Part shown: one piece after another, positions 1,700 through 24,491 of the stretch
Position numbering within the stretch: the stretch's first letter is position 1
How the letters are laid out: every line of letters begins with the position of its first letter
Assembly: GCF_000025945.1 (NCBI RefSeq)
Contig: NC_006138.1
Location: forward strand, 2,700,001 to 2,732,000
DNA: 32,000 nucleotides
Direction: 5' to 3'
From: Desulfotalea psychrophila LSv54
Lineage (GTDB): Bacteria; Desulfobacterota; Desulfobulbia; Desulfobulbales; Desulfocapsaceae
Made by a program: the position numbers and the translations under genes
Notes under the pieces: generated by a model
Databases searched by the model: none
Told to the model about the DNA's origin: nothing
What the model saw: only the letters and a program-made list of their open reading frames with translations

Positions 1700-2396
1700 T
1701 GCCGGTGGAAACCTATGGCGAGGACTGGAAGATGCGCATTGCTCATGCTAAAATTCTCACCATCAATCCCGACGTACTGCTCTAAACCTTGTCGAAGTAT
1801 CGCTTTCCAGAAACTTGATCGCAACCCTACCTGCTTGCCTCCTCGCGGAGGCTTAGTTTGTCGTAAGTCAACTGCCTGTAGCGATACATTGCCGTTTCAG
1901 CCAGTGACCCTCTGGTGGTATCCTGTGCTTTCCTGCCACTCTTTCAACACACCTTTTCGCAGTGCTCTTACAGCGTCATTTCTCGGGTGGCTTCCTCCCA
2001 CATTCCAGCATTCTTCCGTGGAGGACGACGACCGATCCTTTTCTCTTGGCAATGTCATAGCAAGCTTTCGTGTCCTGCTCCATCACCCAATATCTGCTTA
2101 ATATGAAGAGGATTTAATAACGGCCCTAAGAATTTGGAATCATGGCCCCACTCCATCGAAATTTTACCACTTAGGCGATCAGTTTCTGTATCGATAGCAG
2201 GATGGAGTTTGCGCCAAGTTCTACGTTTACCTGCACCATGCTTTCCTATACTCCATTCTCCTTTTTCGTGCTTACACCCAATCGAAGCGGACAAGGTAAT
2301 TGACATCTCATACTCTGTAATTGTTCTTTTTATCTCGACGATAATTTTGTCTTCTATCTCGTTGATATTTTTAAGCATAAAACACCTCCTCACCAT
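1700..2396 (-). pseudogene. IS5-family (IS903-like) DDE transposase remnant, N-terminally truncated with multiple frameshifts
   Basis: Minus-strand translations spread over three frames read GEWSIGKHGAGKRRTWRKLHPAIDTETD, GDGAG, TKACYDIAKRKGS, PPRKNAGMWEE, NDAVRALRKGVLKEWQESTGYHQR and SLAETAMYRYRQL. These follow the conserved order of IS5/IS903 transposases. At least four frame changes are needed, and the N-terminal third is absent. Confidence 0.7.
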
Positions 2397-2666
2397 TAAG
2401 AGAGATGGGTAAACGCAATTTGATATCTGCTCGATCTTGCCTGTCTTGTGGGCAGAGAAGGTAGATGCTTTTCATGAGAAAAGTGATATGAAGATTGATC
2501 AATCTTGAAAAGCCAACTCGTTTCCATCTCTACCTAAGAGTAAATACTTACTTTTATATTATAGAAATGGCCTATGCAAATTTTAATGGTTGTTAACTCT
2601 GTCTTTGCTAAAACTCAGTTAAGTGAAAAGGGGAGGGGTATACAAGATTGTTTTCAGTGACTTGAC

Positions 2667-2687
2667 GTGTTCGGCAAAACCGAACAC
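2667..2687 (+). terminator. Perfect 8-bp hairpin (GTGTTCGG-caaaa-CCGAACAC) followed by an interrupted T-tract
   Basis: Read directly from the sequence. The downstream sequence is tttgtcatgttttt. No obvious upstream gene, so the function is uncertain. Confidence 0.25.
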
Positions 2688-2809
2688 TTTGTCATGTTTT
2701 TCGTAATTTCTTTTTACTGAGGTAGGGGGTATATAAAAATCGTAGCAAAGAAAAATACCACGATTTCGCTAGCCGTATTTGGCATATCATCTCTATGAAG
2801 GGTAATATA

Positions 2810-2923
2810 ATGAAAAATATATTCGCTAAAAAAATGAATGCTGTAGTTCAAGTAGCTGTTGGTCTTGCCCTTTTGAGTGTTGTTACCCTTGGGCCAGTTG
2901 AGGTAGCGCTACTTCTGGCCTAG
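2810..2923 (+). CDS. Hypothetical 37-aa hydrophobic peptide (MKNIFAKKMNAVVQVAVGLALLSVVTLGPVEVALLLA)
   Basis: ATG preceded by a GAAGGG-like RBS. It has a basic N-terminus followed by one hydrophobic helix. It falls below the length cutoff of the ORF track, and no homology is recognisable. Confidence 0.25.
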   Translation: MKNIFAKKMNAVVQVAVGLALLSVVTLGPVEVALLLA

Positions 2924-2981
2924 GTCAGTTATAGAACAAGCAGGCTTTTAAACACTTTGTTCCACCTAGACGGTGTAAAAT

Positions 2982-4030
2982 TTAAATCTTCGGATAAAGT
3001 CTTTTTAACTTTATCGGTGCAAAATTACCAATCAACTTTTGTTTGCTGACTATTTCGATCAATATGCTATACAGTGCCACACTATCTCTCATTTTTTCAA
3101 TACAGGCAATGCAACCTACGAGACATTGTCACGTTAAAATGCTGAGCTCAATCTCTGCAATGTTTAACCAACTCCCGTGTTTTGGAGTGTGGTGGATTTC
3201 AAGCCAATCTGCCAATTTTTTGGTTAAATCAAGTGGAAAAGCTGTATATAATGAAGCATGGGCGTTCAGATTATCCATAACTACTTTTTTAGCGTCTGGA
3301 TGGTTCTTCAAGCATTTCATGTATAAAATAAGCCCAGTTCGCACGAGTACGGCGCTCAGTATTTTTAACATGTCACATTTCCTGCAAAAGGTCATCGTCA
3401 AGCAACTCAGCGTGCCCCTGAAACTGCAGGAAGAAGCTTCTTCACCTCACGGCTCGGCTGAACACTTGACTCATTCATATAAAATAGCGGGAAATCAGCA
3501 TGGTTTGAACAAGTATAAAGGTCTAAAACATCTTCCAGCGCTACCACAAAAACGGCATTCTTGTCAGGAGGAATTTTCCAGTATTTACTCAAATACGGCT
3601 TACGCCTTTAACACCTTACAAACTGTCATTACCGAGACACTTTCTATCATTTTAAGCTCAACCATTTTCCCGCCAATAGCTGCACAGTCCAACGCCCCCT
3701 ACCCTCTGGGACTTCCGAACATGCAAATGCCAAAAGATGAGTTTCAAATTCTCCGCCAAATTTAATTTCCTTAGGTGGGGTTAGTCGTTTCTTACACTCA
3801 TTAGTAACCGAAATTCCCTATTCAACAAACCGTTTTTTCAGATATTCCAGACTACGAGTTATTGTCCCAAGTGCCTATCCAACATTTAGCACTCAAGCAA
3901 CAGTAGTACTCTTACATACAAGAGAGTTCGGGCAACTCTTCTCTCCCACATCGAAATAAATTCCAGATCTTTACGTTCTTTCCTGGTCAGCCTTACTCGA
4001 CAAGGTAGTGCCACGTAAACATTACCTTTA
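2982..4030 (-). pseudogene. IS630-family (DDE_3) transposase, heavily decayed
   Basis: Minus-strand fragments in family order: VRLTRKERKDLEFIS...RVARTLLYVRVLLLLEC (HTH region), WKIPPDKNAVFVVALEDVLDLY, DNLNAHASLYTAFPLDLTKKLADWLEIHHTPKHGSWLNIAEIELSILT, an in-frame TGA at 3129-3131, then QCLVGCI...APIKLKRLYPKI-stop. Several stops and frameshifts interrupt them. Confidence 0.8.
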
Positions 4031-4812
4031 TTCTTAAAGCTCCTCCCTCTTTTCTAAGAAACATCATTCTAAATATAACAATAATTGCATAGAGTCTTAG
4101 CCCCAAAATAGTATTTGCAGGAGGAAATTATACGCTAAGACACCTTGGTCGCTACAGGCCGTTACAAGACATTACAAAAGGTTAAGCATAGACACCAATA
4201 ATGCAAAAGCAACTCAGCAAACAATAGAAAAAAGAAATACTCCATAAATAACCAATGCAAGGGCAAAAAAAACCAGTGAAAAACAGCCTAGCCCTTTAAG
4301 CCAGCCTCAACATGTTGCCGGCAAAAAAGATGAACAAGTCACATTCGCATTATGGCTTTGGCCAAAAAAGCGCAGAAAGAAAAACAACCAAAAAAAAACA
4401 CTACTCATACTCCGCTAGCCTTCCCTTCAAAAATAAGCTCGATAAGCTTAATTAACTGAAAATACCAATCATCCCGTACAGCGCCAAGCGCCAGAAAATA
4501 AAGCTGACCCTTGCCCAGCATGAAGTCAAATAAGGCTAGGAATAGCTTGGTAATTTGCAGTTTTCAAATTGAAATGATTACAGCTGACAACGATTTAAAG
4601 TCAACTTTGACTCGTACAGCTCAGGTCAGCAGAAACAAAAAAACTGATAATCACCCAAAAACAGCTCGTTAGAAATTTAAGTCGTTTTTGGCATAAATTT
4701 CGCTTCGTATATTCCACCACATAGGGTTTTGACTAAAATAGTTGGGTGCTGAGGAAATATGTAATCTGAGTAGCTAACTAGCAAAATATAAAGGGAATAA
4801 AAGGGAAAATTT

Positions 4813-6327
4813 ATGGCTAAGAAAGAAAGAGTAGTTCTGGAAAAATCAATTAAACCTGCTGGTGTTTTAGCGCTGGCTATTGGCTCGATTATCGGCTGGG
4901 GTTGTTTTATTTTACCTGGCAGCATGATGGATAAAGCTGGCCCAGTAGGAGCCATCATAGGACTTATACTTGGAGCAGTAATCATGCTCGTTATAGCAAA
5001 AAGCTATGGCTATATGATTCAAAAAGTTCCTGTTTCTGGTGGAGAATTTGCTTACGCCTATAACGGTTTTGGTCGCAACCACGCCTATGTTTGTGGCTGG
5101 TTTCTTACTCTGGGCTATCTCAGTATTGTTCCCCTCAATGCAACGGCACTATCTCTTCTGGCAAAGTTTACAGCACCAGAACTCCTTACCTGGGGTTATC
5201 TCTATACGATTGCAGGCTCAAAAATTTACTTTGGAGAGGTTGCTCTTGCTTCATCTGCAATGCTCATTTTTGGTTTCCTAAATTATCGTGGCTCTAAAGG
5301 TGTTGCTGGCGTTCAGGTTTACATGGTTGCTCTCTTGGTTGCCGCTGCAATTCTTATTGCAGGCGGTGCAATATCATCTGAATCAGCATCGTTTAGCAAC
5401 CTTGTTCCATATTTCAACCCTGATGTGCCAACCATTGCTGGCATTGTAAGTATTGTTGCCATTGCCCCGTGGTTGTTTGTTGGTTTTGACACTATTCCTC
5501 AGGCGGCAGAAGAATACGACTTCCCACCTGCAAAAGCGAACAAACTCATCATACTCTCTATTCTTGTTGGTGTCGGAATATACCTGTTAGTTCTGGTAGC
5601 AACAGGTGTCGTTTTTCCTTGGCAAGAGTTATCTGCGGGCAACCATGTATGGCCTACAGGATTTGCGATGGAAGCTGCGGTAGGTAAGGCAGGTCTTTGG
5701 TTTCTCGTAATTGCAATTTCAATGGGAATTTGTACTGGTATTAACGGCTTTTACATGGCTACGAGCCGTCTGCTCTTTTCCATGGGACGCGCACAGGTGT
5801 TACCTGAATGGTTTACTGGCGTGGATAAGAAGAGTGGTGTACCTAAAAACGCTGTAATTTTCACAGCAGCAGTTGCTCTTATCGCACCATGGTTTGGTCG
5901 TAACGTTATTGTCTGGGTTGTTGAAATGGCTGCCCTCGGTACAGCTTTTGGCTACATGTACACCTGTTTTGGAGCATATAGAGAGGCCAAGAAAGCTGAT
6001 GGCAGAAATGTTGAAATCCCAATAAAAAGTGGAACTGCTCTTGCTGGTGGCCTTCTCTCTTTTGGCATCCTTCTTCTTCTCTGTGTTCCAGGTAGCCCAG
6101 GTTTTATGGCCCATGAATCTTGGTATGCTCTCGGAGTGTGGGTTGCTCTAGGCGCTGTATTCTACGCTATGCAGGCTAAGCGCTATAACGCCCTAAGCCA
6201 TGCAGAACTTGACTACTTAATTCTTGACAAAAAAGACTCTTCCGACAAATCTGTGGGTGAATGTGACGAAAATATCATGGTTCAGCCTATAATTAATACT
6301 GGATCTACAATAAGTGCAATAGACTAA
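4813..6327 (+). CDS. APC-superfamily amino acid/polyamine permease
   Basis: 504 aa with many hydrophobic segments. The N-terminal AGVLALAIGSIIGWGCFILPG motif is typical of APC permeases. An AAGGGA RBS lies upstream of the ATG. Confidence 0.8.
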   Translation: MAKKERVVLEKSIKPAGVLALAIGSIIGWGCFILPGSMMDKAGPVGAIIGLILGAVIMLVIAKSYGYMIQKVPVSGGEFAYAYNGFGRNHAYVCGWFLTLGYLSIVPLNATALSLLAKFTAPELLTWGYLYTIAGSKIYFGEVALASSAMLIFGFLNYRGSKGVAGVQVYMVALLVAAAILIAGGAISSESASFSNLVPYFNPDVPTIAGIVSIVAIAPWLFVGFDTIPQAAEEYDFPPAKANKLIILSILVGVGIYLLVLVATGVVFPWQELSAGNHVWPTGFAMEAAVGKAGLWFLVIAISMGICTGINGFYMATSRLLFSMGRAQVLPEWFTGVDKKSGVPKNAVIFTAAVALIAPWFGRNVIVWVVEMAALGTAFGYMYTCFGAYREAKKADGRNVEIPIKSGTALAGGLLSFGILLLLCVPGSPGFMAHESWYALGVWVALGAVFYAMQAKRYNALSHAELDYLILDKKDSSDKSVGECDENIMVQPIINTGSTISAID

Positions 6328-7604: not shown

Positions 7605-8498
7605 TTACGACCTTATAACTTCACCCACAACAATTGTTCGTCCAGCAGTGAATTTGATCTTCTTGTTTATCACTATAGTGCTAGGTAGTTTTTCAACAAT
7701 CTGATCTGGGAAAATAACACAGAAAGTTTTGATAAAAGGAATCCATTTGGTAAATATTGCCAGCGACAGATCTTGAGCGGAGGTGCACCAGGATCTGTCA
7801 GCCGGGAAGTCGGACACTAAACAACAATCATGGAGCCAAGGAGTAAAGGCATCTTTATTGTGAATATCTAAATCAACTCCCAAAACATCCCTATTTGTCT
7901 TCGCCATCCTGAGCATATTGACATTGTTATCAGAAGCATAGCTTTCCCTATCTAAAAGTTTAGCCGCCAGGGGAAGCAGACCTGTACCACAACAGGGATC
8001 AATAACAGGAGAACTCCCTGAAATATTTATAAGAGCAAGAGCAGCATGAGGTTTAAGGGAAACACAAGTTCTCTCTGTGATCTGCCCGAACTTCTCGACG
8101 ATGCTATCTGTTTTCTCACGAACAAAGCCGGCAATCCAGAGCACATTATCTGGTGAGAAAACTAAAATAATTGATTTAGGATGAGAAGCTCTTATCTCCC
8201 CTCCGTGAATTTTTTCTGCCAGGAATGCATAGCTGGTGGAACCACATCTTTTGTTCTTATGAATTTTTTCAAGTCTGTAGGGAGATGGGATATTTTCGCT
8301 AAAGTTTGTGATGACTTCTTCTGGAGATGATCCTCGAGATACCTCTCTAATAGAAAACCTGGCATAGGCACTTTTCTCTAAGTCAAAACTCTCCCCATAA
8401 AAAAATCTATTTGAGGCTTGGGTCAAACCAGCAGAGATCATCTCGGCTAAGGCTAAATCTTCAAATCCTTCGGTTGTATTTCTATAAATCCAGATCAT
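7605..8498 (-). CDS. SAM-dependent methyltransferase, UPF0020/Trm11-like, with an atypical motif IV
   Basis: 297 aa. Motif I is VIDPCCGTGLLPLAAKLL. DFPA (LVSDFPADRSW) sits where (D/N/S)PP(Y/F) is expected. The roughly 160-aa N-terminal domain is unassigned. Confidence 0.55.
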   Translation of the reverse strand: MIWIYRNTTEGFEDLALAEMISAGLTQASNRFFYGESFDLEKSAYARFSIREVSRGSSPEEVITNFSENIPSPYRLEKIHKNKRCGSTSYAFLAEKIHGGEIRASHPKSIILVFSPDNVLWIAGFVREKTDSIVEKFGQITERTCVSLKPHAALALINISGSSPVIDPCCGTGLLPLAAKLLDRESYASDNNVNMLRMAKTNRDVLGVDLDIHNKDAFTPWLHDCCLVSDFPADRSWCTSAQDLSLAIFTKWIPFIKTFCVIFPDQIVEKLPSTIVINKKIKFTAGRTIVVGEVIRS

Positions 8499-8588: not shown

Positions 8589-8831
8589 TTATAATCTCAT
8601 CAGTATTCTTTTTGTGCTGTCATACAGTATGGCAACACTCACTGACGAGGAAATCGAGGATAAGGTTAAATTGGACATCTCTTGAAGGTTATACTTTTCG
8701 GGCAGCACACTATCTTCGGTGATTCTGCCCCTCGGAATAGCTCTAGCGTGAGGAATTCTATTTTTGATAGTAACATCTAATCCTGCAATGTCAGCCCCAC
8801 TTTGACCACCTGATATGATTTTCTTTATCAT
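8589..8831 (-). pseudogene. cpYpsA/SLOG-family (former MoCo_carrier, PF12694-like) gene, C-terminally truncated
   Basis: The N-terminus IISGGQSGADIAGLDVTIKNRIPHARAIPRGRITEDSVLPEKYNLQE matches the ISGGQTGxDRAALD...GWCPKGR...P..Y.L.E pattern. After about 55 aa the similarity is lost and the ORF ends at 80 aa. No other frame continues the family sequence. Confidence 0.45.
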
Positions 8832-8901: not shown

Positions 8902-10908
8902 TTATTTTCCTCCACCACGCAATATTTCTAACATTTTTTTTTGATGCTCTTTTATGTCAGTAAAAATCCATTCCTGCCCCGCTACACGAGTGTTTTGATT
9001 GTCTTGGCATTTCTGCATCATAATCATAAACTTGATTGACGCCACACTGACCTGCTTAATCTTTCCGGAAGTATCTAAGTAATGATCAAGCTTTGTTTTC
9101 GGACTCCAATTTGAACCTGAACTATTCGCCTCGCTACCAATCATAGCGTAGTTACCCAGGCAGTTTATTTGCTCTTTATCCAGCGCACCATTTTCTCCAT
9201 TAGCATTGGCTTGCGGGTAGTAATGCTCTAAACTCCTGCGCGTTCTCGAAAAATAAAACTGTTGGAATACTTTCAGTCCAAAATCACTACATCCAAGTGA
9301 GGTAAAAAAATCAGTTCGGTTTGGATCGTCTTCTTTTATACTTTCGCCGCGAAGCTCATTAGCATATTTCTCCCACAACTTATAGTCAAGATAGTTGAAA
9401 ACGAACAACGGAATACCCTTTGATTTTTCCGTGCCATCTCCATAGATTGCAGTAAAATCAAAATTGTCATTGAGTGGCTTAAAATTGAGTACATTGTTAC
9501 AGAGGACGGTGTTATCGAAGCTACCAGGATTCGGCGTATTAATTTGGTTAAGGTTCTCAGCCATCAAATACACGTCTTTGAAGTATTTGTCCGCCAACTC
9601 CGACACGCAATCATAATACTTGCTAATATCCCTGTCGTCAGAACTGAACAGATACAGCAAGCAATAGAAGAGATAATTTTTCCTTTGTCTTGCCGTAAAT
9701 GACACCTCGAACATCGAAAGCAACTGCACCAATTTATGTTGATGATCGCTTTCGCCGTCACGATTTTTCAGATAACCTTTTTTGCCGTCTTGTTGCCAAT
9801 ACTGCAGCTTCCAAGGGTTGTTCTCAATAGTGTCATCTTCATTTGAATGATGCACGAGATAATTGTCTAGCAGATATTTTGCCCTCAGCAAGTTGAAGCC
9901 GAACTTCTTTACAAATTCCTCCTCAACATGCACGTCATCAAATTCATGGATCAATTCTTTATCGTCGAGGATAAAATTCTTAGGTTTTAAACCGCTCTCT
10001 TCAATACGGGTGAGTTTTAACACAATTAGCAAGAAGTTTGAAAAGTCCATAATCGGCTGAAAGGTATCGATTTTGTACTTTTCTTCCTGCTGTTTATTTC
10101 CGCCCTTGTAATTGATAAAGTCTCTGATTTTCATTGTATTTTCGTTTTCATCCACATTCGGTAAAGCATCAAAACTTGAAACCTTAAAATCACAGAGATG
10201 CTTCCCAAAAATTGAGACTTCAGGATATTTTTGTTGTATGTAGACATTCATCTCGCTGCAAGATTCCCAAAGGCGATTAAACTTTGCCTTGTCCGCGTTA
10301 TTTAGTTTTTCAATAAGGCGTGCTTTAATAATTTCGTGCTTTTCCAGTTGCTCGCCTCTGGAATTCATGACTTCAAAGTAGTGATTTAAGTCTATATCTT
10401 TCGGCACTTGGTAGTGAATCAGGTGAACACTGTCCAGAAAATAGGTTTTGAATCCATCTTGGCATTCTTTCAGAACTATTTCATTAATGGTGTCCTTAGC
10501 ATATTTAAAGCCGTTTACGATTCCATAATCTTTTTCGTCAATCTCAAAACAAGGAATGCTTTGAATGGTGTCGTTCGATTTTTTGCGCGCCCGATACGTC
10601 AGTTTGTTTTGGAGGTAAACTCCCAATGCACCAAGTACGAGATTAATTGTGGTTAGCCTCTGTTGGCCGTCAATCACTTCATAGACTTGGTCTCCTTTGT
10701 GGAAGGACACCAATGTCCCAATAAAATAAGTCTGCTTTGGGGCGGTGGTGTATGCATCGTAGACATCCTGAATCAGCGCGGAAATCTCATCTTTTTCCCA
10801 GGCATAGTTTCTCTGGTAAATCGGCACTTCATAAGTAGCTTTATCGCCATTATAGATTTCGGCGATGGACAGTTCTTTGAGCGGCAGAGTTTTAGTTTTC
10901 ATTTTCAC
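8902..10908 (-). CDS. GmrSD-family type IV restriction-like protein (N-terminal DUF262/ParB-like NTPase plus C-terminal DUF1524 HNH-like nuclease)
   Basis: 668 aa. DUF262 motifs: YEVPIYQRNYAWE, IDGQQRLTT, YFEVMNSRGEQLEKHEIIKA. DUF1524 motifs: SLEHYYPQ ... NCLGNYAMIGSEANSSGSNWSPKTK. The track start is GTG at 10908. An alternative ATG at 10902 follows a GGAAGG RBS. Confidence 0.85.
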   Translation of the reverse strand: MKMKTKTLPLKELSIAEIYNGDKATYEVPIYQRNYAWEKDEISALIQDVYDAYTTAPKQTYFIGTLVSFHKGDQVYEVIDGQQRLTTINLVLGALGVYLQNKLTYRARKKSNDTIQSIPCFEIDEKDYGIVNGFKYAKDTINEIVLKECQDGFKTYFLDSVHLIHYQVPKDIDLNHYFEVMNSRGEQLEKHEIIKARLIEKLNNADKAKFNRLWESCSEMNVYIQQKYPEVSIFGKHLCDFKVSSFDALPNVDENENTMKIRDFINYKGGNKQQEEKYKIDTFQPIMDFSNFLLIVLKLTRIEESGLKPKNFILDDKELIHEFDDVHVEEEFVKKFGFNLLRAKYLLDNYLVHHSNEDDTIENNPWKLQYWQQDGKKGYLKNRDGESDHQHKLVQLLSMFEVSFTARQRKNYLFYCLLYLFSSDDRDISKYYDCVSELADKYFKDVYLMAENLNQINTPNPGSFDNTVLCNNVLNFKPLNDNFDFTAIYGDGTEKSKGIPLFVFNYLDYKLWEKYANELRGESIKEDDPNRTDFFTSLGCSDFGLKVFQQFYFSRTRRSLEHYYPQANANGENGALDKEQINCLGNYAMIGSEANSSGSNWSPKTKLDHYLDTSGKIKQVSVASIKFMIMMQKCQDNQNTRVAGQEWIFTDIKEHQKKMLEILRGGGK

Positions 10909-12352
10909 CTTCCACGAATTTGTTTGTTTTGAAATAGTGGAGATAGCTTTGATAAATGCCGTCCTTATTCTGCTTATCCATATTATCTTTTTTCGCCTTT
11001 ATGCAGCCAATCGGCAACGGATTCACCCTGTCGGAAAGTGTACTTAAAAGCGAAACCGGTGAATCTGCTTCGGTGATAATTTTGTATAGGTTGAAAGAGT
11101 TCTTAACTTTGTTGCCAATAATATAGTTTTGCGCAGACAGCCAACCGACATTATAATACTGTGCCCTAAGCGAATAAGCCCAAACAAAGGCAAAAACCAC
11201 AAATTGGTTTAACATTTCCAAGTCCATTTTTGCAGGTCGTTCGGGACAAAATCTATCAACATAGAGCAAAATAGTGGTGTCGAACAGCAAGCGTGTGATT
11301 CGGTTACCAACACCATTTTTGTATATTCTCAGGTCAAGTGTTTTTATAATGTCGTTATCATTGATAAAATAGCCTTCATACTTGTCGTTGTTCTGAATGT
11401 CTTTAAGAATTTCAAAGTAGTGTTTTGCATAGTCAAAAAACGGCTTGCCCGCGACAATTGGTGTGTCCAACTGAAACGGTTTAAGATTCCGTATGCCCGA
11501 AACAAAAGGCATTGCGGACTGATTGACCGTATCGGCATAAGCAAATGCCCCTTTGTAGAATTGAGCGTAAGGGAAGTTGTCCTGCCGGGTGATGCCCTTG
11601 AATTGATATATATTATGCTCTGTAAGTCCCCAAGCTTTGTTGCCTTTTATCCATTCTTTCACACGATAGAGATAATCGCTGAACAGTGCCGAGAGTTCTT
11701 TTTGATTTAAGTCCTCCCAACCTTTTACAACCTTCTCGGTTTCTGCTACATCCAAATCGTTCATCTCGCGAAGATGATAAGCCTTAAGCAAATCATGGGG
11801 GTAAAGCTTTTTTCCACGAGCATTTTGCGAATCAAAGAACTGGAAGGCGTCGGATATGTTTTCTGTAATGATAACGATAAGTTCGCAATTATTTTTGATG
11901 TAATCCAGCAATTCCTTGCTATCCTTGTCGTCAATGATATTATTTGTACGTCTTTCCAGTGTGCGGAAGTTATTGGCAATATTACGCGTATTATGTGGAT
12001 TATTTGCAAGAGGCTGCTCTAAAAAACTTATTGAATCAGCACCAAGAGCTTTAAGTAGCAACGTAAAGGTTATAGTTCGCTGTTGCCCATCGACAATGTT
12101 ATATATTGATTCTTCCTCTTGATGGAGGATGAGTGTCCCTACTCGGTAGGTTTCTTTATTTTCATTTTTTGCATCAATAATGTCATCCAGTAGTTGAATT
12201 GCATTTTTTGCTGTCCATTTATAAGGCCGCTGATAATTTGGTATCACCAAGTTAATGTCAGTAATGGTATTGCCGTCTTTATCTTGCGTGATTTTATCGT
12301 GCAACAATAAGTCACCGATTTTGGTTATTGCGAGTTTTAAGCAAGTGGACAA
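10892..12352 (-). CDS. DUF262 (GmrS-like, ParB-like NTPase) protein lacking a nuclease domain
   Basis: 486 aa. Motifs: VIPNYQRPYKWT, VDGQQRTITFTLLL, FFDSQNARGKKLYPHDLLKAY. No HNH/DUF1524 motif in the C-terminal half. TTG start after an AGGAGA RBS. Its 3' end overlaps the next gene by 11-17 nt. Confidence 0.8.
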   Translation of the reverse strand: MSTCLKLAITKIGDLLLHDKITQDKDGNTITDINLVIPNYQRPYKWTAKNAIQLLDDIIDAKNENKETYRVGTLILHQEEESIYNIVDGQQRTITFTLLLKALGADSISFLEQPLANNPHNTRNIANNFRTLERRTNNIIDDKDSKELLDYIKNNCELIVIITENISDAFQFFDSQNARGKKLYPHDLLKAYHLREMNDLDVAETEKVVKGWEDLNQKELSALFSDYLYRVKEWIKGNKAWGLTEHNIYQFKGITRQDNFPYAQFYKGAFAYADTVNQSAMPFVSGIRNLKPFQLDTPIVAGKPFFDYAKHYFEILKDIQNNDKYEGYFINDNDIIKTLDLRIYKNGVGNRITRLLFDTTILLYVDRFCPERPAKMDLEMLNQFVVFAFVWAYSLRAQYYNVGWLSAQNYIIGNKVKNSFNLYKIITEADSPVSLLSTLSDRVNPLPIGCIKAKKDNMDKQNKDGIYQSYLHYFKTNKFVEGENEN

Positions 12353-13429
12353 ATTATATTCTCCTATTAGAAATATTATTTACCACCGCCTGAACGGCGG
12401 TATATTTTATTCTCGCGTGTTACTTCTTTCAATATTTCTTCGGCTGCAACTATCATTTCAACGCATTGCGCCAATTGCAGTCAACTATATACATGCCGAA
12501 AAATTTCACACATAACGGTTGGATCATGTTGCCAAATTGTTGCTTAGTAAAACTCTCTCTCTATATGTTGGGTCCCTGATGATTTCCCAGGCATCCGTAG
12601 CAAAAGGTTGTTACGAGCATATACATGGACAGAGGATTGCATACTATCTCCACCTACAAAAACAACCCTAGCAGCCGACATCTGTCCTACACTAATTTCA
12701 TATTAAGGGCAAGTAAGAAGCCTTAGGTGATATGGACAGAGAGTTGAGCACCGGAAAAATTTGCGATAAAGGAGTTTGACCTGTTTGAGCTAGCCATTTA
12801 AACTCCCGCAAATTTTGAGGAGCACAGGGGAGGCGACCGGAGTGGCGGGGCCAAGCACCTTCGTCTCTTTTGAGGAAAAGAGATGATGACTGGATAATGA
12901 CCGAGTAAGTTTTTTTATCCGAACCCTTAAGACGTGTATTGGTTAACTACTTAATTTTAGATAAAAAAATAACAATTCCAAGAGCCCCCTTACTAAACAT
13001 TGATATCTACACAAGCTCTGCAATACCCGTATGAATGGGGGTTGAGGGAAAATATAGAAACTGGTGCAGCCTTGAAAGAGCTCTTGCCCTTGGCAAGGGG
13101 GCTCTGGGGATCATCAGCGGGGCCATGGGGAGAGTTGGTGTAAGCAAAAAAGCCCTGCGTTAAATGATGCTTGGCTTATTTGCCGAGCTTTTTAACAAAC
13201 CCCGGACCCCCCTTACCAAGGGGAGAAGTCTCCACAGTTCATGCAGACTCTCTCATTTTATGATTAAGCGCCAAGAAACATCGGTGAAACTCTTTGATTT
13301 ACTGGCTTCTGGCAAGATGTGTAGATACTAATACTTATCAAAGAGAGGGGTTGCCCCTGCTCATTTCGACCTTTTTCCTGAGGGAGAGGCCCATGAAGAG
13401 ATAAGAGCCAAGGTACTCAAGACGATGAG

Positions 13430-14557
13430 TTAAGAGCTGTTAGAGTTTTTTCGAGCCTGATAGCGGGGAGAATCGCCCCACTCATCCCAGCCAACACTCT
13501 CTCCTATCTGGTCAATACCGCTGACAAGTGCAAGCATGCTCTCATCACAAATCTCATCCTGACCAGGCTTATTTTCATAGAGCTGATAATTTGATTTGCA
13601 CTCAGGCAGGGTGATATTGGGCATAATAACATTTGCCCCGGCCAGAAGTCCCCGTTCACGTCCATCGGGGGCGAGGGCTTGAAGGGCGGTGGTGGCAGCA
13701 ATATTAATATTGGGCAGGAGAATACGGGCAAGGGCTATCATCTTTAGACCTAAATCCATCGATCGCTCAGGATCAGCTATAAAGTCAGGGGCCATCCCCT
13801 GAAGCGGCGCCTCGGCGTGGGGCAGGTAGGGGCCCATCCCGATCATATCCACATCAAGATCACGCAGGGCGAGAAGATCAGTCACCAGATTATCAAGACT
13901 TTGAAAGGGGAGATTAATCATCACCCCACTTCCCACCTGAAATTGGGCCGCACGCAGATCGGAGAGGGCGGTGAAACGACGAGAGTAATGATGGTCCGCC
14001 GGATGCAGGCGAGAATAGAGAGCTGGGGTAAAGCTCTCCATACGGAGCAGATAACGGTGGGCGCCTGCAGCAAACCACCGACGGTAGGTGGCAAGACTTT
14101 GCTCACCCAGGGAGAGGGTGATGCCAAGCCGTCCCTCACTTCGCTCCTTGATCCCAACAATAAGTCTGGTGATCCACTCGGTAAAGGCGGGAGATTGCTG
14201 CTCCCCTGCCTGAATCACCATTGAGCCAAAACGGAGACGAATCGCCTCATCGGCCGCAGAGAACACCTGCTCATCGCTCATCAGATAGCGTTGCACCGAT
14301 CTATTGGAGTGGCGGATGCCACAGTAGTAGCAATCTTTAGCGCAGACATTACTCAGCTCGACCAGACCACGCAGTCGAACACGCTTACCAACATTATCAA
14401 CCTTAATCTCGTAGGCAAGGCGGAAGAGTTGAGCAATATCGGCTCTCGTATCTAAGGAGAGAAGGGTTAAGAGATCACTGCGCTCAAGATTTTCCCTGGC
14501 AATAATCTTTGCAAAAACTCTCTCCCCTTGTTCAGTTCCATATTCCATACTTTTCAC
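13430..14557 (-). CDS. hydE: [FeFe]-hydrogenase maturase HydE (radical SAM)
   Basis: 375 aa. It has the radical-SAM CAKDCYYCGI (CX3CX2C) motif and is biotin-synthase-like. It sits last in the hydA-F-G-E operon. The GTG start overlaps the hydG stop by 1 nt; an ATG at codon 4 is an alternative start. Confidence 0.85.
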   Translation of the reverse strand: MKSMEYGTEQGERVFAKIIARENLERSDLLTLLSLDTRADIAQLFRLAYEIKVDNVGKRVRLRGLVELSNVCAKDCYYCGIRHSNRSVQRYLMSDEQVFSAADEAIRLRFGSMVIQAGEQQSPAFTEWITRLIVGIKERSEGRLGITLSLGEQSLATYRRWFAAGAHRYLLRMESFTPALYSRLHPADHHYSRRFTALSDLRAAQFQVGSGVMINLPFQSLDNLVTDLLALRDLDVDMIGMGPYLPHAEAPLQGMAPDFIADPERSMDLGLKMIALARILLPNINIAATTALQALAPDGRERGLLAGANVIMPNITLPECKSNYQLYENKPGQDEICDESMLALVSGIDQIGESVGWDEWGDSPRYQARKNSNSS

Positions 14558-20197: not shown

Positions 20198-22804
20198 ATG
20201 ACAAAAGAACTACTTAAGATAGATCTCGATGATATAAAAAATAGATATGTAAACGATGGAGACTTAATTTGCTGTAGCGTCGATACCGCAAATTACCCTC
20301 ACATTCAACCTATAGTTTTCTTAAAAGACGATGTTTTCTACAATATATCTAATGAAGACTCACGAACAATATACAACTCTAGGTTTAAAGAACATATCAG
20401 TGACACTGAAGAAATATTCAGTCCACTCTATGAAAGATTTTTACCAAATGAATTATTTTTATTAAATAGATTCGCTGACAATAAAAGTAAATGGTCTGCG
20501 GCAGATCCTTACTTTTTTGCTTTTGGAAACGACACATTACCAATCACAAACCATCAAGCCTTAGAAGTTTTTGATGGATTTTTTTCCTTAGAAAATGATT
20601 TCTTCGTCCCCAAGCATAATGAATTACTTGAATTACTCAAAAATAAAATTGACAAGGGCATAACAAACCGTTTCTATGTCAAAACACAAGACACTGTTTT
20701 TGGCCCCTTTGAAGCAAAAAAGATAGAAACGAATAGTGTTAAATTGGCAGCAGTTACCATAAATAATGACACCATATATGAATGGAACTACTCTACAATA
20801 AAAAATGATTCTATTTTCGAATTTTCTGAACCTGAAAGAAACAATAAAATTATTCGCTCGATAACCTCAGGATGGCTTAAAAAAGAAGACAGCAAAAAAA
20901 GTATTATTTTCAAACCTGACAGTGAAATTTTAAAATGGGTAAGTCAACGCACTAAAAAATCTTGTAGCCTCACAAAATCTGATTATAAAAAATTTGAAGA
21001 AATCACAAAAGCATTTCTATCATACGAAGTTAATTCAGATGAAAAATTCATCTACAAGAGAGCAATAAAGCTTATCGAAAAAAGCAAGGAAAACAAGAAA
21101 ATTGTTGATGGTTTCATAGATTTTTTACCAGGATCTTCCATAATTACGGAAAAGCTAGAAGCACTTGAAAAAGAAGCAGAGGAAACACTCTATAAAAACA
21201 AAATAATAAAAAAAGAAAACAAGGAAATTGACGAAGAAATCAAAAACAATACACAAATAAAGAACGATTTACTTAACAAAATAGAAGAACTCAAGAAAAA
21301 AACGGAATTTGAACAAATAGAAGTTACCAAGAGAGAAAATGAGGAGCTCACATTACAAATCAAAAAAGATGAAACGCTAAGAAAAGAATCTGAAAAAAGA
21401 GAAAAATACTCGGAACTCTATAAAATAAATGCAGAAATCAGAAAAAAAGAAAACGCGATTGAAGATCTCAAGGAAAAAGAGAGGGAGTTGAGTGCGGTTA
21501 TAACAGACTTATCTGACCAATTTATCAATAAACAAAAAGAAGCTCACAGTAGTCTACGGGAATTAATAAAATCGAAAACTCATTTTGATTTTATCAGTGG
21601 GAGGAATTTTGAAGATGAAAATAAAACTGTGGAAGATTTTAGTCCGATTATTATAGATTCTTTTTATAAAAATGTTTTAGAAGACACAGGTTTTGTTTCG
21701 CATGAAAAATTTTTACTAGATAAAATTGCCACCTCCTTAAAATATTATGGCAGGAATTATGACAACAACTTTATTGCTAATGTGTTGATATCTCTATATC
21801 AAAACATGGGCACTATCTTTGCTGGACTACCAGGAACTGGAAAAACTTCTTTAGCCAGAATTATTTCAAAAATTTTAACAAAAGATAACAGGAAAGTTGT
21901 TGAAATACCAGTTGCACGTGGTTGGAGTTCTCAAAAAGACTTTATAGGGTTTTACAATCCTCTTTCCAAAAAATTCATTCCGACAAATGAAAAAATGTAC
22001 TCTTTATTAAGGTTAAGCGATGAAGAGGTCTCCTTAAAGACATATAAAGAAAATAATATAGGAATTGTCATCCTTGACGAAGCCAATCTGAGCCCAATGG
22101 AACATTATTGGTCTAGTTTTTATAACTTAACAGATAGTAGAGTCGATGATGAAAACATGCTAGAAATAAACATTGGCACTGAAGCAGAATTAAAATTTGC
22201 GAACAACATCAGATTTATCAGCACAATTAACATCGACCAAACAACAGAAGAACTTTCTCCCAGAATTTTAGACAGATGCAACGTAATAAGAATTCCAACA
22301 GACAATATTTCCTACACACATTCTGCCAATAAGTATAACAGCCAAACTGACATAGAGATTAACTTTTCAGATATAATAAAGTTGTTTAACTTAAAAGACT
22401 TTAACAATGGATTAACACCTGAAGATCTAGAAAACGAATCTTACAAAAAAATATACCTAGAATACTGTAAAACAAAAGATGCTCTGAAAAAATTAAAAAT
22501 AACAGTTAGCCCCAGAATTGACAATGCATTCACGGATTACTTCCTGACAGCACTTAGATTTATGCCTGAATACAAAGCGCTAGATTATTTCATTGCCCAA
22601 CGATTACTAACAAAAATAGATGGGCAGGGAGAAGCATACAAAAAAAACCTAGCAATACTCCTTGAGAAGTTGAAAGAAATATTCATAAACGACCATTCCA
22701 CTAAATCATTCAAAAATGATTCCATAGAAATACTAGAAGAAATTATCGAGACTGGCTCAGAAAGCGAGTTTTACAACAACTACAATTACTTTTTGATAAG
22801 CTAA
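20198..22804 (+). CDS. McrB-type AAA+ NTPase fused to a long coiled coil and an unassigned N-terminal domain
   Basis: 868 aa. Walker A is GLPGTGKTS (nt 21824-21850, K549). Walker B is IVILDEANLSP (D627/E628). QKDFIGFYNP resembles the McrB YEDFIxGYxP segment. STINIDQT has N678-I-D680 where McrB has MNTADRS. ILDRCNVIRI resembles the DxALxRRF segment. Residues from about 318 to 470 are heptad-like and Glu/Lys/Ile-rich (EKLEALEKEAEE...KEKERELSAV). Residues 1-310 carry no motif I recognise. Confidence 0.8.
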   Translation: MTKELLKIDLDDIKNRYVNDGDLICCSVDTANYPHIQPIVFLKDDVFYNISNEDSRTIYNSRFKEHISDTEEIFSPLYERFLPNELFLLNRFADNKSKWSAADPYFFAFGNDTLPITNHQALEVFDGFFSLENDFFVPKHNELLELLKNKIDKGITNRFYVKTQDTVFGPFEAKKIETNSVKLAAVTINNDTIYEWNYSTIKNDSIFEFSEPERNNKIIRSITSGWLKKEDSKKSIIFKPDSEILKWVSQRTKKSCSLTKSDYKKFEEITKAFLSYEVNSDEKFIYKRAIKLIEKSKENKKIVDGFIDFLPGSSIITEKLEALEKEAEETLYKNKIIKKENKEIDEEIKNNTQIKNDLLNKIEELKKKTEFEQIEVTKRENEELTLQIKKDETLRKESEKREKYSELYKINAEIRKKENAIEDLKEKERELSAVITDLSDQFINKQKEAHSSLRELIKSKTHFDFISGRNFEDENKTVEDFSPIIIDSFYKNVLEDTGFVSHEKFLLDKIATSLKYYGRNYDNNFIANVLISLYQNMGTIFAGLPGTGKTSLARIISKILTKDNRKVVEIPVARGWSSQKDFIGFYNPLSKKFIPTNEKMYSLLRLSDEEVSLKTYKENNIGIVILDEANLSPMEHYWSSFYNLTDSRVDDENMLEINIGTEAELKFANNIRFISTINIDQTTEELSPRILDRCNVIRIPTDNISYTHSANKYNSQTDIEINFSDIIKLFNLKDFNNGLTPEDLENESYKKIYLEYCKTKDALKKLKITVSPRIDNAFTDYFLTALRFMPEYKALDYFIAQRLLTKIDGQGEAYKKNLAILLEKLKEIFINDHSTKSFKNDSIEILEEIIETGSESEFYNNYNYFLIS

Positions 22805-22805
22805 A

Positions 22806-24491
22806 ATGTATTCCATTGAAATAACGTCTTTCAACAACAACAACGTTGTTCAAAAAGCGAACAACACTTTCGATATCAAGGAAACATTTAACTACAATAT
22901 TATTCTGCGAAGAGAGGGGATAGTACAAAATGGTTTTCTTCTTATTGATGGAGTTTTCAATCAATTTGGAGAACAAAGAACTATTGCGCTCGGAAAAGAA
23001 GAAAAGACACCTTTCATTAACTGCTTTGGTCTCTTTACTTGCTCATACGATGGACAATTTATTGCAACTTTCGACGTTTCAACTACAAAACTTAGTGGTG
23101 TAGAAGCTAAAAATATTCTAGAATACGTCTACCATAACTCCCAAGAGTTATTCACCAGCAACCTGAACAAAACAAGAAATTTCACCTCTGGTGGTAGTAC
23201 AAAAAACAACCTATCTCTTTTTAATTATATTGGTGTAATTAAAGAGTTGCTTGCATGCTTAAAATCTTTTTTGCCAATTTTGAAAAACAAAGCGCTTTAC
23301 AAAATACGGAAAGAAATAACAATAGAAAGATATGAAGAAAATTGTGCAACTAGCAAGAGCTTAGAGTGGATACTTGCAAACCTTGATAAGCATATTTACG
23401 GCAACAGTTTAAAAGGTTTACCAGGAGCTTTTGAAATAGATGGTACATTTGCCTTACCTAACCAAATAGAAATAGAAAAAAACATAAAAGATTTTTCCAT
23501 ATATGAAAATAAGATAATTATTGGAGCAATAAAAACATTAGAGTTACGTATTCGCGATACAATCTACCTAGTAAAATCTAATATAGAAGACAACGATATA
23601 ATCGATGAAAAATTTGCTAGTTTTAATACGATAAAGAAAATATTGCTATCGAGCGAGCTCAACAATTTAGCAGAAGCGAAGCACACTCTATATGAATTAA
23701 AAAACAACTATTTTTCGTTTTTTAATACTGTACCATCCATACAAGAAAAACCAAAATTAACACATAACTTCAGAAGAAAAAAACATTATAGAAATATTTA
23801 TGAAAAAGTAAGATTATTATATGATTCATCTTTGCTCCCGACAGGAATACATCTTGTTCTAGGGATTAAAAACATTGATATATTATATGAATATTACGTT
23901 TTTTATAAAATAATAGATTTATTCAAACAACTCTATGGAGAACCGACAAAAGTCGAAACAGAAGAGAAAGAACAAATAATAAAATATGTAGAATTCATAA
24001 ATGAACAAGGAATGACCTTCAGAGTTCACTATCAATTAAGAATAAACAAAGAAAAAATAACGCCATCATACCCTTGGCTCAAGCTATTTGTAAACTCAAA
24101 CACCGCCAGCCATTATACCCCAGATATTGTCGTAGAATTCGAGTTTAACTCTGTCTTTAATTACGCAATTTTTGATGCAAAATATAGTACAAAGAAATGG
24201 ATAGAGGGTACTTCCGTAAATATAGGAAACACAACTCAAACCGTAATAAACAAATATTATTTATCTGTTTCCCATAGAGGCGAGCCATACAAAAAAATAG
24301 ATTACTTATTTCTTGTTTACCCTAGTAGAATATCAGCAAAATTTTTCACAAAAGAGACAGATTATTATCCAATAATTGCAGCAATACCCTCTGTTCCAAA
24401 CAACAACAGTCATCTACAAGATATTATTGAAACAATCGCTAGAAACTGGGCGAATAACACTCAAGCGCATCACCCTAAGCCAAGCATTTAA
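22806..24491 (+). CDS. McrC-like protein (DUF2357-type N-terminal region plus C-terminal PD-(D/E)xK nuclease)
   Basis: 561 aa. The ATG lies 1 nt after the stop of the upstream gene (TAA-A-ATG). The nuclease motif is YTPDIVVEFEF-x11-IFDAKYS (D440, E445, D457-A-K459), the PD...DAK arrangement typical of McrC. Confidence 0.7.
   Translation: MYSIEITSFNNNNVVQKANNTFDIKETFNYNIILRREGIVQNGFLLIDGVFNQFGEQRTIALGKEEKTPFINCFGLFTCSYDGQFIATFDVSTTKLSGVEAKNILEYVYHNSQELFTSNLNKTRNFTSGGSTKNNLSLFNYIGVIKELLACLKSFLPILKNKALYKIRKEITIERYEENCATSKSLEWILANLDKHIYGNSLKGLPGAFEIDGTFALPNQIEIEKNIKDFSIYENKIIIGAIKTLELRIRDTIYLVKSNIEDNDIIDEKFASFNTIKKILLSSELNNLAEAKHTLYELKNNYFSFFNTVPSIQEKPKLTHNFRRKKHYRNIYEKVRLLYDSSLLPTGIHLVLGIKNIDILYEYYVFYKIIDLFKQLYGEPTKVETEEKEQIIKYVEFINEQGMTFRVHYQLRINKEKITPSYPWLKLFVNSNTASHYTPDIVVEFEFNSVFNYAIFDAKYSTKKWIEGTSVNIGNTTQTVINKYYLSVSHRGEPYKKIDYLFLVYPSRISAKFFTKETDYYPIIAAIPSVPNNNSHLQDIIETIARNWANNTQAHHPKPSI

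What the first reader, a model, noticed from the sequence alone, without database searches (positions are those of the whole stretch)
8902..12352. Overlapping tandem DUF262 genes: a nuclease-less GmrS-like protein translationally coupled to a full DUF262-DUF1524 (GmrSD-like) enzyme
Seen in sequence: both proteins carry the full DUF262 motif set ((I/V)P(I/N)YQRxYxW, DGQQR, NxRGxxL). Only the downstream one has the DUF1524 His-Me finger (EHYYPQ ... N-x-x-G-N ... N). The genes overlap by 11-17 nt, and an SD-like GGAAGG sits inside the upstream gene, which implies co-translation. Established knowledge: single-polypeptide GmrSD/BrxU/SspE-type enzymes are NTP-dependent type IV restriction or nicking enzymes. 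Inference: the extra nuclease-less paralogue may act as a regulatory or specificity subunit in a heteromeric assembly. I do not know of this arrangement having been characterised.
Basis: partly seen in the sequence, partly recalled or inferred. Interest (0 to 1): 0.7.

Follow-up and report, generated by a model that had tools for sequence, protein, structure and literature searches.

The report
TgvAB-type two-protein restriction enzyme
This is an intact copy of TgvAB, a two-gene anti-phage restriction system already characterised in Vibrio cholerae; this very Desulfotalea locus is already listed as a TgvAB homologue in a 2024 paper, so it is real but not new.

Summary
Two intact minus-strand genes overlap by 11 nt: A (10892-12352, 486 aa) and B (8902-10902, 666 aa from a conserved ATG). 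A has DUF262 plus a C-terminal DUF7834 domain. B has DUF262 plus a DUF1524 His-Me nuclease.

In 24 of 27 related genome loci the B homologue lies directly downstream of A on the same strand. A and B identities co-vary (r = 0.98). The two DUF262 domains belong to two old clades, not a recent duplication.

The novelty claim fails. This architecture is TgvAB of Vibrio cholerae VPI-2 (VC1767/VC1766). There the ORFs overlap by 8 bp, both proteins are required, the DGQQR motifs of both and the His-Me site of TgvB are essential, and the targets are glucosyl- or arabinosyl-hmC phages. V. cholerae TgvA also carries DUF7834, and A and B align with TgvA and TgvB beyond DUF262. Table S5 of Vizzarro et al. 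2024 already lists CAG37104.1 and CAG37103.1 of Desulfotalea psychrophila LSv54 as a TgvAB hit.

Still open: whether A and B form a complex, what DUF7834 does, and which modification this clade senses.

The parts
12404..12432 (-). Promoter-like site (TTGAAA-17-TAAAAT, 10 of 12 matches) about 50 nt upstream of gene A
   Evidence: Consensus scan only. The -10 region and the surrounding ~165 nt are conserved with Lentisphaeria loci L002/L021. Function is inferred.
12381..12402 (-). Hairpin (TACCGCCGTTCAGGCGGTGGTA) in the 5' leader, between the -10 element and the ribosome-binding site of A
   Evidence: Only partly conserved in L002, L021, L024 and L007. Role unknown.
10892..12352 (-). Gene A, tgvA-like (486 aa, TTG start, AGGAG 8 nt upstream) = CAG37104.1
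   Evidence: 100% identical to P0001 of Desulfotalea psychrophila. Listed as the VC1767 hit in Table S5 of PMC11411939. 25% identity over 372 aa to V. cholerae TgvA, E 5e-23.
11774..12256 (-). DUF262 / GmrSD_N (ParB-like NTPase) domain of A, residues 33-193, with YQRPY, DGQQR and FFDSQNARG
   Evidence: Pfam 3.1e-29. Motifs invariant across 91 TgvA-type proteins from three clades. Most of this domain has block-mean pLDDT 83-94 in the AF2 model.
11021..11740 (-). DUF7834 domain of A, residues 205-444; predicted all-alpha, no nuclease motif
   Evidence: Pfam 2.7e-58. Also present in V. cholerae TgvA, 3.4e-38. Invariant residues W212, E213, W234, P298, G302, F389, R396. No profile similarity to B's linker or DUF1524.
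10908..10913 (-). Shine-Dalgarno GGAAGG for B, inside the 3' end of A
   Evidence: GGAGG or a close variant at the same place in most homologous loci.
10892..10902 (-). 11-nt overlap between the stop codon of A (TAA 10892-10894) and the conserved ATG of B (10900-10902)
   Evidence: The same 11-nt overlap occurs in 14 of the related loci; the others range from a 7-nt gap to a 25-nt overlap.
8902..10902 (-). Gene B, tgvB-like (666 aa from the conserved ATG; 668 aa from the GTG at 10908) = CAG37103.1
   Evidence: Listed as the VC1766 hit in Table S5 of PMC11411939. 25% identity over 394 aa to V. cholerae TgvB, E 1e-29, including the linker.
10315..10866 (-). DUF262 / GmrSD_N domain of B, with YQRNY, DGQQR and FEVMNSRGEQL
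   Evidence: Pfam 7.2e-34. Motifs invariant in 21 homologues.
8926..9369 (-). DUF1524 / GmrSD_C His-Me finger nuclease domain of B. SLEHYYPQ (H560 in 666-aa numbering, codon 9223-9225), LGN (N584), EAN (N593)
   Evidence: Pfam 6.3e-6, above the gathering cutoff. The FSRTRRSLEHYYPQ block is invariant in 21 homologues.

Best explanation
The locus encodes a TgvAB-type, two-subunit, modification-dependent (type IV) restriction enzyme of the GmrSD superfamily. The two genes are transcribed as one operon and are probably translationally coupled through the 11-nt overlap and the internal ribosome-binding site.

A (TgvA-like) consists of a DUF262 NTPase-type domain with intact catalytic motifs and an all-helical DUF7834 domain. 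B (TgvB-like) is a complete GmrSD-type chain: DUF262, helical linker and DUF1524 His-Me nuclease.

By analogy with V. cholerae TgvAB, both proteins are needed, the DGQQR motifs (predicted NTP-binding/hydrolysis sites) of both are needed, and the nuclease of B cuts incoming phage DNA that carries hypermodified bases while leaving the host's unmodified DNA alone.

Shown here: domain content, motif integrity, homology to TgvA and TgvB, and conservation and co-evolution of the pair. Inferred: that A and B form a complex, translational coupling, anti-phage function in Desulfotalea, and the identity of the recognised modification.
For: Domains and motifs.

Homology to the characterised system:
- V. 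cholerae TgvA has the same DUF262 + DUF7834 architecture.
- A aligns with TgvA across both domains (E 5e-23).
- B aligns with TgvB through DUF262 and the linker (E 1e-29).
- The authors' own TgvAB model picked up this locus: Table S5, system 14, CAG37103.1 + CAG37104.1.

Pair conservation:
- In 24 of 27 genome loci the B homologue lies directly downstream of A on the same strand. The other three contigs end or hold only a fragment.
- The overlap and Shine-Dalgarno site are conserved.
- A and B identities co-vary, r = 0.98, n = 17.
- A-type DUF262 domains group with A-type, and B-type with B-type, across six taxa: mean 107 and 113 bits within type, 57 bits between types.

Defence context elsewhere: defence islands and type I RM loci. 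In Bacteroidota loci the pair appears to sit between hsdS and hsdR, judged by my reading of the flanking sequences.

Published genetics for TgvAB: both genes required, DGQQR of both and H571/N602 of TgvB essential, specific for glc-hmC and ara-hmC phages (PMC11411939; 10.1101/2024.04.05.588314; PMC12409362).
Against: Identity to the tested V. cholerae proteins is only about 25%, and only their first 399 residues were available to me, so function and specificity are extrapolated.

No experiment exists for the Desulfotalea genes. No A-B complex is reported for any TgvAB in the papers I read.

Unlike V. cholerae, this copy is not embedded in a type I RM operon (no hsd genes in the window). It sits in a low-GC patch with gene remnants, so expression in this host is unproven.
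Confidence: 0.85

Rival explanations
1. A is not a catalytic partner but a guard or decoy. It protects the GmrSD-type enzyme B from phage-encoded inhibitors such as IPI*-like proteins, or keeps B's nuclease off until infection. Under this view B is the whole enzyme and A is only a regulator.
For: Vizzarro et al. raise this possibility themselves. A has no recognisable nuclease motif. B has every element of a single-chain GmrSD.
Against: In V. cholerae, TgvB alone gives no protection even when over-expressed, including against phages not known to carry inhibitors. DGQQR mutations in TgvA abolish defence, which points to an active NTPase role. The DGQQR, QR and FxxxN motifs of A are invariant across 91 diverse TgvA-type proteins.
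Confidence: 0.1
2. The pair is a phosphorothioate-sensing nickase system like SspE or DndI, working with a DNA-sulfur modification module rather than sensing phage base modifications.
For: PADLOC SspE profiles hit the N-terminal domains. The best structural matches to the model of A are DndI (9jfl) and SspE (7drs, 6jiv), E about 2e-6. B's weak PDB sequence hits include SspE.
Against: The hits cover only the shared DUF262 domain (TMq 0.29-0.36). No dnd or ssp modification genes turned up in the window or in the four annotated homologous loci (L028, L030-L033). The homologous TgvAB senses sugar-modified hmC.
Confidence: 0.03
3. The two genes are independent or decaying paralogues that merely lie next to each other. 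A would be a truncated GmrSD that lost its nuclease and has no function.
For: The locus lies in a low-GC patch with gene fragments: a truncated cpYpsA at 8589-8831 and a transposase fragment at 2055-2396.
Against: A is full length and 52-92% identical to homologues in seven or more phyla, with 153 of 486 positions invariant. Its C-terminus is a conserved domain of its own, with 410 clusters at 50% identity. The pair co-evolves, r = 0.98. The A and B DUF262 clades are old.
Confidence: 0.02

Closest known systems
[quoted passage not shown] 2024, PMC11411939; Gomez & Waters 2024, bioRxiv 10.1101/2024.04.05.588314)
   Same: Same gene order and strand. The upstream protein is DUF262 + DUF7834 and the downstream protein is DUF262 + linker + DUF1524. 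ORFs overlap (8 bp there, 11 nt here). The QR, DGQQR, FxxxN and H...N...N motifs match. Homology extends beyond DUF262. This locus is listed as a hit of the authors' TgvAB model.
   Different: Only about 25% identity to the V. cholerae proteins. By DUF262 score the Desulfotalea pair is closer to the Haemophilus, Tolumonas and Klebsiella-plasmid pairs. It is not embedded between hsdS and hsdR here. It has not been tested, so its target modification is unknown.
Single-chain GmrSD-family type IV enzymes (Eco94GmrSD, BrxU, HEC-06)
   Same: B has the full DUF262-linker-DUF1524 layout and catalytic motifs. HEC-06 is among the top PADLOC hits for both A and B.
   Different: Those enzymes work as single proteins (homodimers in the solved BrxU and SspE structures). 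Here a second DUF262 protein is strictly co-inherited, and in the homologous system it is required. The PADLOC matches for A and B cover only the first ~100 residues of ~560-residue profiles.
GrwAB of WASA-lineage V. cholerae (PMC12137116; reviewed in PMC12409362)
   Same: The other known two-protein GmrSD-like system: one DUF262-DUF1524 protein plus one DUF262 protein without a nuclease, both required.
   Different: The nuclease-less partner GrwB has an extended C-terminus of several unknown domains, and the system targets 7-deazaguanine-modified phages. I did not obtain GrwAB sequences, so no direct comparison was made.
SspE / DndI phosphorothioate-sensing GmrSD-like proteins
   Same: Shared DUF262 fold. 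They are the best structural matches for the model of A.
   Different: Single proteins that carry their own nuclease and depend on Ssp or Dnd modification genes, which were not found in the window.

Membership tests
TgvAB | Two adjacent same-strand genes: upstream DUF262 protein without DUF1524, downstream DUF262 + DUF1524 protein | tested here: met
TgvAB | The upstream protein shares TgvA's C-terminal domain (Pfam DUF7834) | tested here: met
   A: DUF7834 2.7e-58. V. cholerae TgvA, first 399 aa: DUF7834 3.4e-38.
TgvAB | Sequence homology to VC1767 and VC1766 that extends beyond the DUF262 domain | tested here: met
   A vs TgvA: 25% over 372 aa, E 5e-23. B vs TgvB: 25% over 394 aa, E 1e-29. 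Only the first 399 residues of the V. cholerae proteins were available, taken from Table S5.
TgvAB | QR, DGQQR and FxxxN motifs in both proteins, and an H...N...N His-Me motif in B | tested here: met
TgvAB | Overlapping ORFs / operon organisation | tested here: met
   11-nt overlap with an internal Shine-Dalgarno site, conserved in homologues. V. cholerae: 8 bp.
TgvAB | Detected by the describing authors' HMM/MacSyFinder TgvAB model | tested here: met
   Table S5 of PMC11411939, system 14: CAG37103.1 (VC1766 hit) and CAG37104.1 (VC1767 hit), with sequences identical to the window ORFs.
TgvAB | Embedded within a type I RM operon (the origin of the name, not required by the authors: 1,341 pair hits against 79 five-gene hits) | tested here: not met
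   No hsdM, hsdS or hsdR in the window. Close homologues in Bacteroidota loci L008, L011 and L015 appear to sit between hsdS and hsdR, judged by my reading of the flanking sequences. Others lie beside type I RM.
TgvAB | Both proteins required for defence; specificity for glucosyl- or arabinosyl-hmC DNA | not testable with these tools
   Needs phage challenge and mutants.
Single-chain GmrSD (Eco94GmrSD/BrxU type) | One polypeptide with DUF262 and DUF1524 is sufficient | not testable with these tools
   B has the architecture. Strict co-inheritance with A and the TgvB-alone result in V. cholerae argue against sufficiency.
SspE / DndI | Genetic association with sspABCD or dndBCDE phosphorothioation genes | tested here: not met
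   No such genes turned up in the window or in the four annotated homologous loci (L028, L030-L033).
HEC-06 (PADLOC) | Full-length match to the HEC-06 profile | tested here: not met
   The matches for A and B cover about the first 100 positions of 558-569-position profiles.

The most novel reading that the evidence does not exclude
The Desulfotalea-type clade may recognise a different DNA modification than glucosyl- or arabinosyl-hmC, with the uncharacterised DUF7834 domain of the A subunit acting as the specificity or assembly module of a heterodimer that has only one nuclease. This clade is about 25% identical to V. cholerae TgvAB, and its 3.5-kb cassette is about 90% identical in nucleotide sequence between Desulfobacterota and Bacillota. 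If true, the TgvA partner would be the swappable 'reader' that diversifies GmrSD-type enzymes.
Probability: 0.2. Interest if true: 0.45.

Novelty: already known. Interest (0 to 1): 0.15.

Why it matters
As a discovery it matters little. The architecture was described and genetically dissected in 2024, it appears as a defence-system category in 2026 genome surveys, and this locus is already in the published hit table.

It has some value as an example. It is an intact, stand-alone TgvAB cassette in a psychrophilic sulfate reducer. Its coding sequence is about 90% identical at the nucleotide level to copies in Clostridium and 82-88% identical to copies in Lentisphaeria, Sporolactobacillus and Accumulibacter, while the flanks are unrelated. 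That shows how freely the minimal two-gene unit moves.

The open questions belong to the whole family: why a complete GmrSD-type chain needs a second DUF262 protein, and what DUF7834 does.

Tried and rejected
- The look-up of encoding contigs for the window's A protein found no record, so context came from homologues instead.
- PDB sequence search: nothing for A. For B, only weak N-terminal DUF262 hits to 20yv/20yw ('DUF262 domain-containing protein') and SspE. No solved TgvAB structure was found by sequence.
- Tested whether DUF7834 is a degenerate GmrSD linker or DUF1524. hhalign of A-family against B-family C-terminal regions, with shallow and then broader alignments, gave probability below 1%. 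No support at sequence level.
- The first AF2 model of A (47 sequences) was poor in DUF7834 (pLDDT below 50). A 91-sequence alignment from three clades gave pLDDT 77.
- Foldseek on the full model returned DndI and SspE, but TM 0.29-0.36 is explained by the DUF262 domain alone. Whether DUF7834 resembles their helical domain stays undecided, because I could not crop the model.
- Megablast of the cassette against the plasmid and phage collections: no match. Protein-level search found a related pair (35% identity) on 888 plasmids, mostly conjugative Klebsiella plasmids.
- NCBIfam: no family for A or B.
- No tRNA and no Rfam family anywhere in the window, so no obvious integration site.
- Recent duplication of the DUF262 domains is rejected (26% identity; clade analysis).
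- The neighbouring 297-aa methyltransferase-like ORF and the cpYpsA fragment are rejected as parts of the system, because similarity to other loci stops at the ends of the two genes.
Full report
**1. What is in the sequence**

Two long ORFs lie head to tail on the minus strand.
- A runs 10892-12352 (486 aa). It has a TTG start preceded by AGGAG at 8 nt.
- B runs 8902-10908 as listed (668 aa, GTG).

Pfam assigns the following:
- A: GmrSD_N/DUF262 (3.1e-29) and, over residues 205-444, DUF7834 (2.7e-58).
- B: GmrSD_N (7.2e-34) and GmrSD_C/DUF1524 (6.3e-6, above the curated cutoff).

A has no His-Me or other recognisable nuclease motif.

At the junction the sequence is GTGGAAGGTGAAAATGAAAACTAA. 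In related loci the ATG (window 10902) and a GGAGG 5-6 nt upstream are conserved, while the GTG is not. B therefore most likely starts at 10902 (666 aa), and the overlap with A's stop is 11 nt.

**2. Origin and relatives**

A is 100% identical to a Desulfotalea psychrophila protein on a 3.52-Mb contig. The locus sits in a patch of about 39% GC next to a block of about 50% GC that holds the [FeFe]-hydrogenase large-subunit and hydF genes and two radical-SAM genes I take to be hydE and hydG.

Homologues of A at 81-92% amino-acid identity occur in Clostridium, Cohnella, Paenibacillus, Syntrophales, Accumulibacter and many metagenomes.

A scan of one genome per species returned 27 loci.
- In 24 of them a B homologue lies immediately downstream on the same strand. 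The other three contigs end or hold only a fragment.
- Identities of A and B to the window proteins co-vary, with r = 0.98 over 17 complete pairs.
- Nucleotide similarity to other loci (90% to Clostridium sp. OS1-26) begins about 20 nt upstream of A's start and ends at B's stop. It extends about 165 nt further upstream only in two Lentisphaeria loci (L002, L021) and about 120 nt in an Accumulibacter locus (L024). Flanks are otherwise unrelated.

The inherited unit is therefore the bare two-gene cassette.

**3. Are the two DUF262 domains a recent duplication?**

No. A and B share 26% identity over 194 residues, and only in DUF262. Across six taxa, A-type domains score higher with each other (mean 107 bits), and so do B-type domains (113 bits), than A with B (57 bits). 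They are two old, distinct clades.

**4. Comparison with what is known**

A literature search found that this architecture was described in 2024 as TgvAB of V. cholerae VPI-2:
- TgvA (VC1767) has DUF262 only, and TgvB (VC1766) has DUF262 + DUF1524.
- The ORFs overlap by 8 bp.
- Neither gene protects alone, even when over-expressed.
- DGQQR substitutions in either protein, and H571A or N602A in TgvB, abolish defence.
- The system restricts Tevenvirinae carrying glucosyl- or arabinosyl-hmC, and T2 escapes through agt mutations.

The authors built HMMs and found 1,341 tgvAB pairs in 41,142 genomes. Their Table S5 lists, as system 14, CAG37103.1 (VC1766 hit) and CAG37104.1 (VC1767 hit) of D. psychrophila LSv54, with sequences identical to the window ORFs.

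I tested the relationship independently, using the first 399 residues of the V. cholerae proteins given in that table:
- V. cholerae TgvA has the same DUF262 + DUF7834 architecture (3.4e-38).
- A aligns with TgvA over 372 residues spanning both domains (25% identity, E 5e-23).
- B aligns with TgvB over 394 residues, including the linker (25% identity, E 1e-29).

The locus is a member of the TgvAB family. It belongs to a sub-clade closer to the Haemophilus, Tolumonas and Klebsiella-plasmid pairs than to the Vibrio pair. A second two-protein GmrSD-like system, GrwAB, is also known.

**5. Context**

In D. psychrophila no type I RM genes are in the window. Elsewhere the same clade is found in several settings:
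- In a Clostridium defence island with a PLD-helicase, an N6-methylase/S subunit and IS elements.
- Next to hsdMSR in Cohnella, and next to hsdMSR plus a Tn7-like element in another genome.
- Alone, between what look like housekeeping genes and a Fic/TPR/CHAT cluster, in an Accumulibacter-assigned contig.
- Apparently between hsdS and hsdR in Bacteroidota loci. I infer this because the upstream flank encodes the ...RDTLLPKLMSGEVRV tail that I recognise as an HsdS C-terminus, and the downstream flank opens with an N-terminus that I read as HsdR-like.

A related pair (35% identity, 4-nt overlap) is carried by 888 plasmids, mostly conjugative Klebsiella plasmids.

**6. The DUF7834 domain**

- Across 91 TgvA-type proteins from three clades the DUF262 catalytic motifs are invariant. 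In DUF7834, W212, E213, W234, P298, G302, F389 and R396 are invariant.
- A search of 1.84 billion cluster representatives with DUF7834 alone found 410 clusters. Nearly all are 420-520 aa, with the domain C-terminal to an N-terminal region of about 200 residues. No listed hit leaves room for a further domain after DUF7834.
- Profile-profile comparison gave no similarity to B's linker or DUF1524.
- An AF2 model (pLDDT 77) predicts an all-helical domain.
- Foldseek returns DndI and SspE, but the scores are explained by the DUF262 domain.

Its role remains unknown.

**7. Mechanism**

Most likely (0.85 for the family and the general mechanism), this is a two-subunit type IV restriction enzyme. A and B would be co-translated and act together. 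NTP binding or hydrolysis by both DUF262 domains would control the His-Me nuclease of B, which cuts hypermodified phage DNA.

Rivals:
- A as a guard or decoy against inhibitors (0.1).
- A phosphorothioate-sensing system (0.03).
- Independent or decaying paralogues (0.02).

The complex, the translational coupling and the target modification are inferred, not shown.

**8. Verdict**

The feature is real, intact and conserved, but already known. Interest is low (0.15).

Noticed in passing
window 20198-24491 (+ strand): An 868-aa AAA_5 ATPase (Pfam 3.2e-7; PADLOC candidate PDC-M26A, 2.4e-26) is followed by a 561-aa protein with a weak PD-(D/E)XK hit. They sit in a 30%-GC island. This looks like a McrBC-like or candidate defence pair, 8 kb from the TgvAB genes.
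   Followed up: partly
window 8589-8831 (- strand): An 80-aa ORF matches only the first 50 positions of the 145-position cpYpsA SLOG profile (3.8e-15). It is a truncated gene remnant about 70 nt downstream of B.
   Followed up: no
window 7605-8498 (- strand): A 297-aa ORF has sub-threshold SAM-methyltransferase hits (UPF0020/RMKL-like, TIGR01177, PADLOC mad2 1.2e-5). It is not conserved next to the pair in other genomes.
   Followed up: partly
window 12353-13429: About 1.08 kb without a convincing ORF lies between gene A and the radical-SAM gene that starts at 14557 and ends at 13430. The GC shift from about 39% to about 50% falls near 13000. No tRNA or Rfam hit, so the insertion boundary is unexplained.
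   Followed up: partly
window 12381-12432 (- strand): A promoter-like site is followed directly by a 9-bp-stem hairpin in the leader of gene A. The hairpin is partly conserved in the Lentisphaeria, Accumulibacter and Enterobacterales copies. It could be an operator or an attenuator.
   Followed up: partly
window 2001-5000, including 2055-2396 (- strand): A second low-GC stretch (38-41%) holds a DDE transposase fragment and ORFs with no Pfam match (3043-3765, 240 aa). This suggests further horizontally acquired or decayed material.
   Followed up: no
L029 (Klebsiella pneumoniae plasmid pD17KP0018-1) 4941-8170: A TgvAB-like pair (426 aa + 650 aa, 4-nt overlap) lies on an IncF conjugative plasmid beside umuDC and a Phd/YefM antitoxin. 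Related copies occur on 852 Klebsiella plasmids in PLSDB.
   Followed up: partly
L001/L028 vs window 8921-12375: A Desulfobacterota chromosome and a Clostridium chromosome share 90% nucleotide identity over 3455 nt, confined to the two coding sequences with no shared flanks or mobility genes. How the bare cassette moves is unexplained.
   Followed up: partly
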